From assembly GCF_041248615.1 (NCBI RefSeq), contig NZ_CP158426.1: DNA of 64,000 nucleotides, one strand, 5' to 3'. The DNA comes from Escherichia coli. Its GTDB lineage: Bacteria > Pseudomonadota > Gammaproteobacteria > Enterobacterales > Enterobacteriaceae. This document shows positions 51,001 to 54,000 of the stretch, piece by piece; the first letter of the stretch is position 1; each line of letters opens with the position of its first letter. A program made the position numbers.

Positions 51001-54000
51001 TGGAAACAGAAACCAAGTCGCTCTGATATGTGGCTACAAGCCCATATCATCCCCTTGGATGAGGATTGTATACCTATACAAGGGCTAAAGTTTGAACTGA
51101 AATGGAAACCAGATCAGGATTCAGAACCTGATGACCCGATTTCTTACCCTAAAATAAATATTATTGCTTTCTATCATAACAAGAGGGTTTTCGCGGTAGA
51201 TACCTATCACTTTGACAAACACACGAATAGTTACAAGGTCGATCATCCGAAGTACCAAGATATCATTTACGGTGCTCACTACCATGTATACTATGAAGAA
51301 GCTGGATACTATAGTGATAGAATAGCGTTTCCAATCGAAGATGACATAAACCCAGATGACCTGGTAGGGTATTGGAATTACTTCTGTAAACATCTGAACA
51401 TAACTTACTCTGGGAGAATACCTTTACCGCTTGAAGATGAGTCGGGGCAAATGGGGTTTGGAATATGATGTGCTCAACAGTGATCTCACAACTAGGTTTC
51501 GAATGCCATCCAATAGGCAAGACCTTGAGAATTATCAGTCCATTCACTTACTGTGATGATGGAGAGCATGTCGGTGCCTTTATCCGTGAAGTCAATGGTA
51601 GGTATTTAGTTAGTGACAGATGCGATGCCTTAATGAATATGGAGGCAAGAGGGATCTCGCTTACCAAAAAACGACTTGATGAGATACGACAATTACTGCT
51701 TAAAGAAGGCGCAGAACTCAATGCTCGAGGAGAAATCATTGCTTGGGCAACAGAAAAGGATGTCGGTGCGATTACATCGAACATAATTAGAGCTGGTATA
51801 CTCGCATCAACTTTGTCGTTAGACTGGTATCAGCCAGTTCAAGCTGAAAAGTTTGAAAGTATGGTTATTGATTATCTATATCACACAGAGCTTAGAGACG
51901 CACTTTCTCTTCGTGAAAACGTATATGGCTTGAGTGGACATCAAATTACCGTCCCTGTAACAATAAAAACCGACATACCTAAATACGTTTTTACATCAAG
52001 CGTGAAACACGGAGGAAGCTGGAATAGTGCTTACTCATTGCTTGGGAAACTAATTGATCTTAAAGCTTCAAGTGAGGAGTATAACAACAGATTTGTTGTT
52101 ATAGACAGCGAAGCAATTGGTGATCAAATGCAACAACTCTCCTTACTCTTCCATGAATCAAGCCAAGTTCTACCATTCTCCAAAAGAGAGACTTGGGTTA
52201 AGAGACTTGCAGCATAATACAACCCGGCCTCAGCGCCGGGTTTTCTTTGCCTCACGTTCGCCCACCTAAAAACACATAACCAATTATATTTATTGAAAAA
52301 TAAATAGATGCAACCCACTAAACCACGCAATTCTGATCTCTCCTTACATCGCCGAGGCAATACATCCACGCTAAAAAACAACACTATTAAATACAAAGCG
52401 TTATAAAAAACCACGCCAACTTACAACAAATTGTATTGATCTTGTAAAGTACATATCGTACTATTTAACCGTCAGCAGGACGCTGGAAGCCAAATGGAAC
52501 AGACTGGCAGGCTCTTTAAACAACGTCGACTCTCGACTACGTGGCTGAAAAGCCAGATCACCCAACCACATAAGCTGTGGGATGCAATGCCGAAGCAACC
52601 GTCTCAGGAGGAGCTTCGAGATTGCATCGCCAAAGTTTATTCGGGAGGAATCCATGTCCAGAAAAACAGAATTTAAAGGCACCGCAGCTTCTCGCCGTAG
52701 AGCTCGTCGCGCAAATCTGCAAAGTCAGGAGGCGATCAGCTCCGACAAGCTACACAGGCCAACCCCTTCACGAGTGGTCTTGCAATGCAAGCTCAAACCA
52801 GCAATGAGAGCAGAAGTGATAACTCTGACAACGTTGACCAGAAAATATGAAGGTTCAACTTGTCTTCCGAACGTAGCTCTTTACGCGGCAGGCTACCGGA
52901 AATCAAAACAACTGACGGCGAGATGATAAATTCATTTGCTAATTACTTGTTTTTGCCATGCTTATCCTGAGCGATAAGTTCATCCATAAGGCTGTCTGCC
53001 TTCCCGGCAAACCTAATGTAGCACTCATGTCTATAGCTTTCAGGGATAACGAAACGGTCGGTATCAGGATATCCAACAGCAGGAGGCCTTCGAACGAGGA
53101 GTCCTTTTTTGAGCAATGAAATTGATTCATGAGCGCCCTTTTCCGTTTGTAGCTGGTTATTAGCGGCTACAGCGAATGCCAAATACGCTCTTTCTCCAAG
53201 AGTTAACGAATCAAACAAATCTTGCACATATTTTTCTTCTTTAGATTTGCGCTTCTGAGCAGCGAATACCTCAATTCTTTCAGTCACAGCGTGATAAGCG
53301 GAATTAACAACGCCGTTAAGCACATAGCTAACGCAAAACAACAGGATGTAATACATCCAGTAATGAGGAAGGATTTCTGGACTATGCAGGTTTATCCATT
53401 CTTTTACGCTTACCGGCATAACAATAATCAATATGATCAGGATGATTAGCATATGAATCAACTGTTTAAGTGTCATTCCTTGCAGGAAAAAATGCATTAG
53501 TTCCTGCCACCATGAGTTGTTCATCGGCGTTTCTCTTTTGCTCTCTGTAGGGGTGAATAGAGTTTATCCGATTTCTCGTTGTAGGGGTACACGAGAACCA
53601 CCGAGCCTGATGTGGTTAAAAGACAGGCACAATCTTTACTACCGCAATCCACTATTTAAGGTGATATATGGAAGAAGAATTTGAAGAGTTCGAAGAGCAT
53701 CCTCAAGATGTGATGGAACAATACCAGGACTATCCGTATGACTACGACTATTGATACAAATCAATGGTGTGGACAATTCAAACGATGCAATGGATGCAAG
53801 CTGCAATCGGAATGCATGGTTAAGCCTGAAGAAATGTTTCCTGTAATGGAAGATGGGAAATATGTCGATAAATGGGCAATACGAACGACGGCAATGATTG
53901 CCAGAGAACTTGGTAAACAGAACAACAAAGCTGCCTGATAGTGGCCTTTATTTTTGGCATAAATAACAGAATAAACACTGCACTGTGTATTCATTCCAAC

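What the first reader, a model, noticed from the sequence alone, without database searches (positions are those of the whole stretch)
52943..53524. SieB-like superinfection exclusion gene next to N
A 193-aa membrane protein, opposite in orientation to N, matches my recollection of lambda SieB, an abortive-infection protein. With ren and the unknown cI-linked pair, the prophage carries several exclusion functions within about 6 kb.
Basis: established knowledge. Interest (0 to 1): 0.4.

Follow-up and report, generated by a model that had tools for sequence, protein, structure and literature searches.

The report
Known prophage SieB exclusion gene

Summary
The ORF is real: 52943..53524, minus strand, 193 aa, convergent with the N antiterminator gene (52654..52926, +) and upstream of orf28 and ral, as in lambda and P22.

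It belongs to the SieB family. It scores 77.7 bits on Pfam PF14163 (cut-off 26) and matches PHROG 1301 full length at 1e-121. It is 82% identical (E 5e-111) to the experimentally characterised P22 SieB.

It is only about 21% identical to lambda SieB (pairwise E 0.022). So "SieB" is right but "lambda SieB" is the wrong allele.

The P22-annotated sieB promoter (30/31 bases) and the internal Met25 start of Esc, the SieB inhibitor, are conserved.

RefSeq already calls it "super-infection exclusion protein B" (WP_001066176.1, E. coli NRZ14408). The same allele occurs in 576 of 5,426 complete E. coli genomes, including Nissle 1917, and in the temperate phages ev017 and PhiR57_1.

Verdict: already known, low interest. 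No exclusion phenotype has been tested for this allele.

The parts
52943..53524 (-). sieB coding sequence, 193 aa (P22-type allele)
   Evidence: The ORF was listed. It matches Pfam PF14163 at 77.7 bits against a cut-off of 26 and PHROG 1301 full length at 1.2e-121. It is 82% identical to P22 SieB, E 5e-111. RefSeq annotates it as WP_001066176.1, super-infection exclusion protein B.
52943..53452 (-). Nested esc reading frame (169 aa), starting at Met25 of SieB. It is inferred from the P22 annotation.
   Evidence: P22 esc is annotated from codon 25 of sieB. That ATG maps to window 53452..53450 and the preceding ~40 nt are identical to P22. Met25 is nearly invariant across 34 family members, and three cluster representatives start exactly there. 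Use of this start in this prophage has not been tested.
53561..53591 (-). Counterpart of the P22-annotated sieB promoter (PsieB). The P22 transcript start maps to window 53554.
   Evidence: Mapping through alignment A2 gives 30 of 31 bases identical to P22 and lambda, and the single change lies between the hexamers. My generic sigma-70 scan did not pick this site, so the only basis is the P22 annotation.
53450..53554 (+). Region antisense to the 5' end of sieB mRNA, where the P22 antisense RNA sas (105 nt) would be expected. This is inferred only.
   Evidence: sas is described for P22 in PMC12197685, but no coordinates were available. Window and P22 differ at 6 of 106 aligned positions here. 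No Rfam family matches, and folding is not better than shuffled sequence.
52654..52926 (+). N antiterminator gene. It is the convergent neighbour, and pL transcripts reading through it run antisense across sieB.
   Evidence: It matches Pfam PF25694 N_peptide at 112.5 bits. RefSeq names it 'transcriptional antitermination N peptide'.
53668..53938 (+). orf28 homologue (53668..53754) and ral (53738..53938), the genes on the other side of sieB
   Evidence: The orf28 peptide is identical to lambda orf28. Ral matches Pfam PF11058 at 162.5 bits.

Best explanation
This is the sieB/esc module of a lambdoid prophage integrated at icd in E. coli NRZ14408. It is the P22-type allele.

**Shown here**
- The gene is intact and under purifying selection.
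- It sits in the canonical position between N and orf28/ral, on the opposite strand.
- It keeps the sequence that P22 annotation marks as the lysogen-active sieB promoter.
- It keeps the internal Met25 start that yields Esc in P22.

**From established work on P22** (Susskind 1974; Ranade & Poteete 1993, as summarised in PMC10461980, PMC7380047 and PMC12197685)
- SieB made by the prophage does not block phage entry.
- The carrier phage escapes through Esc, the N-terminally truncated product.
- An antisense RNA, sas, switches translation from SieB to Esc.

**Inferred from the models here**
- SieB is an inner-membrane protein with an N-terminal amphipathic helix and two transmembrane helices.
- The second transmembrane helix continues into a long cytoplasmic helix that carries a winged-helix domain.
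- My proposed mechanism is that the variable winged-helix domain senses a mid-cycle product or nucleic acid of the invader. The conserved membrane part then oligomerises and collapses membrane function.
- Esc lacks residues 1-24 and would poison the assembly by mixing in.

Confidence is about 0.95 that this is a P22-type SieB, about 0.75 that it confers exclusion in E. coli, and about 0.35 for the sensor/effector mechanism.
For: **Family and orthology**
- Pfam SieB above cut-off.
- PHROG 1301 full length.
- 82% identity to P22 SieB.
- 91 phage records carry it, mostly annotated SieB.

**Genomic position**
- Synteny N / sieB / orf28 / ral matches lambda and P22.

**Regulatory features**
- Promoter counterpart 30/31 identical to P22, and the Esc ATG is conserved.
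- Met25 is nearly invariant in the family.

**Selection and spread**
- dN/dS is 0.38 overall, 0.15 in the membrane half.
- An identical gene is present in the isolated temperate phages ev017 and PhiR57_1.
- The allele is present in 576 of 5,426 complete E. coli genomes.

**Structure**
- Full-length model pLDDT 86.7.
- C-terminal domain model pLDDT 93.1, pTM 0.82.
- The N-terminal 75 residues are conserved and the C-terminal ~100 are variable across 34 homologues.
- The basic stretch QKRKSK after the second transmembrane helix places the C-terminus in the cytoplasm.
Against: - No phenotype exists for this E. coli allele.
- 31 of 106 codons in the C-terminal half (86-191) differ in amino acid from P22, so specificity may differ.
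- The promoter is identified only by homology to the P22 annotation. It has a poor -35 element and was not found by the consensus scan.
- The sas RNA could not be located or tested.
- PADLOC has no significant SieB-like model.
- Membrane collapse as the killing step is inference. The literature I could read gives only 'macromolecular synthesis ceases'.
Confidence: 0.85

Rival explanations
1. It is an orthologue of lambda's own SieB (git).
For: Lambda SieB is also a PF14163 member. It occupies the same position and strand relative to N and ral. The ~180 bp upstream of the gene is about 96% identical in lambda and the window.
Against: Protein identity is ~21% over 82 residues, with pairwise E 0.022. 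CDS nucleotide identity is 227/511 aligned positions, against 504/580 for P22. The similarity stops at the mosaic joint just before the start codon.
Confidence: 0.03
2. The gene is an intact passenger that is silent in this host, or serves the phage's own lytic cycle rather than excluding rivals.
For: There are no expression data for this prophage. In the related Nissle 1917 prophage an ISEc52 junction lies 24 bp upstream of the ATG and removes the native promoter. In ATCC 25922 an IS lies within the 1.6 kb region around sieB, but I did not map its junction. The host therefore tolerates loss of normal expression in at least one lineage. The promoter was not detected by the generic scan.
Against: The ORF is under purifying selection. 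The promoter sequence is conserved in lambda, P22 and the window. The gene is widely retained. P22 sieB is prophage-expressed and dispensable for lytic growth (PMC10461980).
Confidence: 0.1
3. It blocks entry of phage DNA at the membrane, as a true superinfection exclusion protein like SieA, Sim or HK97 gp15, rather than aborting infection after entry.
For: It is a small inner-membrane protein encoded by a prophage, which is the general description of entry blockers.
Against: The 82%-identical P22 protein acts after entry, midway through the lytic cycle (PMC10461980, PMC7380047). The bulk of the protein is a cytoplasmic folded domain and the periplasmic loop is only ~14 residues.
Confidence: 0.02

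Closest known systems
Salmonella phage P22 SieB/Esc (BK000583 29758..30336)
   Same: Protein identity is 82% over 191 residues, and the lengths are 193 vs 192 aa. Both have the same N-terminus, the same Met25 Esc start, the same promoter sequence (30/31), and the same position between the N analogue (gene 24) and ral on the opposite strand.
   Different: The host is E. coli rather than Salmonella. The C-terminal half is 80% identical in DNA and 31 of its 106 codons (86-191) differ in amino acid, whereas the membrane half is 96% identical in DNA. There are 6 differences in the 106 nt from the transcript start to the Esc ATG. The surrounding prophage is lambda-like (cI/cro/O/P/ren, RecT) and not P22-like.
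Lambda SieB (git; NC_001416 34482..35036)
   Same: It shares the Pfam family PF14163, the same locus and strand, the same upstream orf28/promoter DNA, the same predicted layout of a hydrophobic N-terminus followed by a soluble C-terminus, and a Met aligned with Met25.
   Different: It is only ~21% identical and not alignable by BLASTP beyond E 0.022. It is a different allele, separated by a mosaic joint about 20 bp upstream of the start codon.
Lambda RexAB and other membrane-acting abortive-infection systems
   Same: They resemble it only in how they work. They are prophage-expressed in the lysogen, encoded in the immunity region, act after entry, and shut down cellular synthesis. RexB is a membrane protein. 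This comes from established knowledge.
   Different: There is no sequence relationship. Rex is a two-protein sensor and channel, whereas SieB is a single polypeptide with a nested inhibitor (Esc). Whether SieB depolarises the membrane is unknown.
Identical genes already in databases: WP_001066176.1 (E. coli NRZ14408, Nissle 1917, strain 1105), and phages ev017 and PhiR57_1
   Same: They are 100% identical in protein sequence and are annotated as SieB or super-infection exclusion protein B.
   Different: The gene itself does not differ. Only the surrounding mosaic differs: strain 1105 has lambda-type exo/bet/gam where the window has RecT and Gp157.

Membership tests
SieB family (Pfam PF14163; P22-type subfamily, PHROG 1301) | Profile match above the curated threshold | tested here: met
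   PF14163 scores 77.7 bits against a gathering cut-off of 26, E 9e-22. PHROG 1301 matches 1-193 of 193 at E 1.2e-121.
SieB family (Pfam PF14163; P22-type subfamily, PHROG 1301) | Close similarity to the experimentally characterised P22 SieB | tested here: met
   156 of 191 residues are identical, with no gaps, E 5e-111.
SieB family (Pfam PF14163; P22-type subfamily, PHROG 1301) | Location inside the pL operon between N (gene 24) and ral, transcribed against pL | tested here: met
   N lies at 52654..52926 (+), sieB at 52943..53524 (-), orf28 at 53668..53754 (+) and ral at 53738..53938 (+). Lambda and P22 have the same order.
SieB family (Pfam PF14163; P22-type subfamily, PHROG 1301) | Own promoter that is active in the lysogen (PsieB) | tested here: inconclusive
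   The sequence counterpart of the P22-annotated promoter is 30/31 identical at 53591..53561. It was not found by the consensus scan. Its activity cannot be tested in silico.
SieB family (Pfam PF14163; P22-type subfamily, PHROG 1301) | Nested in-frame product Esc from an internal start | tested here: met
   Met25 and its upstream context are identical to P22, and Met25 is nearly invariant in 34 homologues. This is a sequence-level test only. Translation from Met25 has not been shown.
SieB family (Pfam PF14163; P22-type subfamily, PHROG 1301) | Antisense RNA sas that switches translation from SieB to Esc | not testable with these tools
There is no Rfam family. The target region differs from P22 at 6 of 106 aligned positions.
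SieB family (Pfam PF14163; P22-type subfamily, PHROG 1301) | Membrane protein | tested here: met
   Hydropathy gives a strong first transmembrane segment and a weaker second. The AlphaFold model has helices at 19-35 and 56-105. This is prediction only.
SieB family (Pfam PF14163; P22-type subfamily, PHROG 1301) | Abortive exclusion of heteroimmune phages, with the carrier phage immune | not testable with these tools
   This needs phage challenge experiments. It is known only for P22 and lambda (PMC10461980, PMC7380047).
   Identity is 21% over 82 residues, E 0.022. It is 20% in the multiple alignment.
PADLOC-catalogued defence systems | Significant match to a PADLOC model | tested here: not met
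   The best matches were 2TM-TIR at E 0.04 and PDC-M02A at E 0.056, neither significant.

The most novel reading that the evidence does not exclude
SieB may be a membrane-tethered winged-helix sensor. In this reading a conserved 2-TM 'killing' module is fused, through a long helix, to a fast-diverging cytoplasmic winged-helix domain that recognises a nucleic acid or protein of the invading phage. The divergent C-terminal domain of the E. coli allele (31 of 106 codons differ in amino acid from P22) would then set a different exclusion spectrum. That spectrum could contribute to phage resistance in the ~10% of E. coli genomes that carry the allele. I found no published structure or mechanism for SieB in the library searched.
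Probability: 0.3. Interest if true: 0.45.

Novelty: already known. Interest (0 to 1): 0.1.

Why it matters
It matters little as a discovery. The gene is annotated in RefSeq and in phage records, and its family has been known since the 1970s-1990s.

Two minor points have some value. First, the allele is common in E. coli (576 of 5,426 complete genomes) yet has never been tested in that host. Second, SieB's killing mechanism is still unknown. The predicted architecture, a conserved 2-TM module joined to a variable cytoplasmic winged-helix domain with a nested inhibitor lacking residues 1-24, gives a concrete hypothesis that can be tested.

Tried and rejected
- **Lambda-type SieB:** rejected by direct alignment.
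- **Locating the sas antisense RNA:**
  - Rfam gave only two sub-threshold chance hits, snoR126 and rliG.
  - RNA folding of both strands of the 5' region was no better than shuffled sequence, z -1.5 and -0.7.
  - The primary papers (PMID 8335629, PMID 8339929, PMC204922) are not held.
  - A literature search with the terms 'sieB sas antisense' was swamped by word-start matches such as 'Siebold' and gave nothing.
- **Generic promoter and terminator scan:** it found only one promoter-like site, inside the gene at 53476..53448, which is fewer than expected by chance. It did not find the PsieB counterpart.
- **PADLOC and NCBIfam:** no significant model.
- **PDB by sequence profile:** only chance hits.
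- **AFDB search:** the library was unavailable.
- **BFVD viral library:** it returned only SieB homologues.
- **Positive selection on the C-terminal domain:** considered and rejected, because omega is 0.45.

Full report
**Observation**

Hydropathy gives one very hydrophobic segment around residues 19-41, where the 19-residue Kyte-Doolittle mean reaches 3.0. A second, weaker segment covers about residues 52-76 and is followed by a basic stretch, QKRKSKEEK.

The gene on the other strand that ends 16 bp away, at 52654..52926 (+), matches Pfam N_peptide PF25694 at 112.5 bits. RefSeq names it the N antitermination peptide. On the other side lie a 28-aa ORF identical to lambda orf28 and ral, which matches PF11058 at 162.5 bits.

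**Identity**

The protein matches Pfam PF14163 (SieB) at 77.7 bits against a gathering score of 26. It matches PHROG 1301 over its full length at E 1.2e-121. PADLOC and NCBIfam have no significant model.

A tblastn search against 50,697 phage records finds the gene in 91 records, mostly annotated SieB. These include 100% identical copies in Escherichia phages ev017 and PhiR57_1, and ~82% identical copies throughout the P22 group.

- Against P22 SieB (BK000583), 156 of 191 residues are identical with no gaps, E 5e-111.
- Against lambda SieB (NC_001416 34482..35036), only 17 of 82 residues are identical, E 0.022, and identity is 20% in the multiple alignment.

Both reference proteins are themselves PF14163 members. 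The gene is therefore a SieB, but of the P22 type and not the lambda type.

**Mosaic structure**

A three-way DNA alignment shows that about 180 bp upstream of the gene is ~96% identical in the window, P22 and lambda. This stretch covers the orf28 5' end and the promoter region. Lambda diverges completely about 20 bp before the start codon, whereas P22 stays similar.

Within the CDS, codons 1-85 are 96% identical in DNA to P22 (dS 0.13, omega 0.15). Codons 86-191 are 80% identical (dS 0.41, omega 0.45). Both halves are under purifying selection. The difference in dS fits either a recombination joint inside the gene or extra RNA-level constraint on the 5' half. I cannot distinguish between these.

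**Regulatory features carried over from P22**

The P22 record annotates a sieB promoter, a transcript start and a nested esc CDS beginning at codon 25. Mapped through the alignment:
- The promoter corresponds to window 53591..53561, 30 of 31 bases identical.
- The transcript start corresponds to 53554.
- The esc ATG corresponds to 53452..53450.

From the transcript start to the esc ATG, the window differs from P22 at 6 of 106 aligned positions.

Met25 is nearly invariant in a 34-sequence family alignment that includes lambda SieB. Three cluster representatives begin exactly at that Met.

The generic sigma-70 scan did not detect the promoter, so its assignment rests on the P22 annotation alone.

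P22 also has a 105-nt antisense RNA, sas, which switches translation from SieB to Esc (PMC12197685; 10.1101/787010). I could not locate it here. The primary papers are not held, Rfam has no family for it, and the region does not fold better than shuffled sequence.

**Where the window comes from, and how common the gene is**

The window is 100% identical to E. coli NRZ14408 (NZ_LT599825.1). There the gene is locus R2K29_RS15185, protein WP_001066176.1, named 'super-infection exclusion protein B'. It lies inside a lambdoid prophage integrated next to icd.

The CDS is found at >= 90% nucleotide identity, covering at least 80% of its length, in 576 of 5,426 complete E. coli genomes. One of them is Nissle 1917, at 100% identity. 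A search of 1.84 billion cluster representatives finds only 40 clusters at E <= 1e-3. The P22-type subfamily reached by a single-sequence search is therefore small, and its named members are Enterobacterales such as Salmonella, Citrobacter, Yersinia and Arsenophonus.

**What it does**

For P22, the literature I could read states the following:
- SieB is one of four prophage-expressed interference systems.
- It stops RNA, DNA and protein synthesis of phages such as MG178 and MG40, and it is also encoded by lambda (PMC7380047).
- Phage L, the classic sensitive phage, lacks sieB (10.1101/2020.10.05.325894).

I found no paper in the library giving a structure or a molecular mechanism.

**Structure prediction**

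I predicted the structure from the 34-sequence alignment. The full-length model has mean pLDDT 86.7. It contains helices at 4-15, 19-35, 38-46 and a continuous helix at 56-105, followed by a compact alpha/beta domain.

Across the family, the first ~75 residues are strongly conserved and the winged-helix part is highly variable.

**Proposed mechanism (inference, confidence about 0.35)**

1. The variable cytoplasmic winged-helix domain recognises something made by the invading phage.
2. The conserved membrane module then oligomerises and disables the membrane, which would explain the simultaneous arrest of all macromolecular synthesis.
3. Esc lacks the N-terminal amphipathic helix and the start of the first transmembrane helix, and it acts as a dominant-negative subunit.

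ren is indeed about 6 kb away: RefSeq annotates it at L005 531..821, which I convert to window 47530..47820. From established lambda genetics, however, Ren protects a phage from Rex exclusion and does not itself exclude.

The cI-linked gene pair sits where lambda has rexAB. It matches the PADLOC candidate system PDC-M24: the B subunit full length at E 4.7e-10 and the A subunit at E 4.8e-4.

**Verdict**

The finding is correct in substance and ordinary. It is an already annotated, widespread SieB gene of the P22 allele type. The only modest addition is the predicted architecture of a 2-TM module joined to a winged-helix domain, and its conserved/variable split. No exclusion phenotype has been tested for this allele.

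Noticed in passing
window 50911..51468 and 51465..52217 (+): A gene pair lies immediately downstream of cI, in the position of lambda rexA/rexB. The proteins are 185 aa (weak DUF6978 match, below cut-off) and 250 aa (DUF1828). They match the PADLOC candidate defence system PDC-M24: the B subunit full length at E 4.7e-10 and the A subunit at E 4.8e-4. The same pair, with the same cI, occurs in the Nissle 1917 icd prophage. It may be an uncharacterised Rex-like exclusion module.
   Followed up: partly
L004 (E. coli Nissle 1917) about 7906..8000, equivalent to window 53549 onward; also ATCC 25922 (H42): In Nissle 1917, identity to the window ends 24 bp upstream of the sieB ATG, at an ISEc52 (IS3-family) junction. 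The native sieB promoter and the whole pL arm from orf28/ral to int are gone. ATCC 25922 and relatives have an IS insertion within the 1.6 kb region around sieB, but I did not map its junction. In Nissle 1917, sieB expression must therefore depend on something else.
   Followed up: partly
window 52943..53524 (-), codons 1-85 vs 86-191: Divergence from P22 sieB shows a sharp step. The 5' half has dS 0.13 and omega 0.15, and the 3' half has dS 0.41 and omega 0.45. This is either an intragenic recombination joint or RNA-level constraint on the 5' half, for example from the sas target and the Esc start.
   Followed up: partly
window about 53540..53590 (-): The motif CCCCTACA(G/A) occurs twice as a direct repeat. 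One copy overlaps the 5' part of the P22-annotated sieB promoter and the other begins just after the mapped transcript start, with the -10 hexamer between them. Both copies are conserved in the window, P22 and lambda. Its significance is unknown.
   Followed up: no
window 52494..52676 (+): A 60-aa ORF overlaps the 5' end of N. RefSeq annotates it as a hypothetical protein (WP_000438342.1), but it has no Pfam or PADLOC match. It lies over the expected nutL/leader region of the pL transcript and may not be a real gene.
   Followed up: no
window 54000..57500 compared with L003 (strain 1105): The window and strain 1105 have identical DNA across window 52400..54000 (N, sieB, orf28, ral) and the same annotated proteins (identical WP accessions) from cI to ral. 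Downstream of ral the recombination modules differ. The window has RecT (54826..55737) and Gp157 (55715..56203), whereas strain 1105 has lambda-type gam/bet/exo. This is typical lambdoid mosaicism.
   Followed up: no
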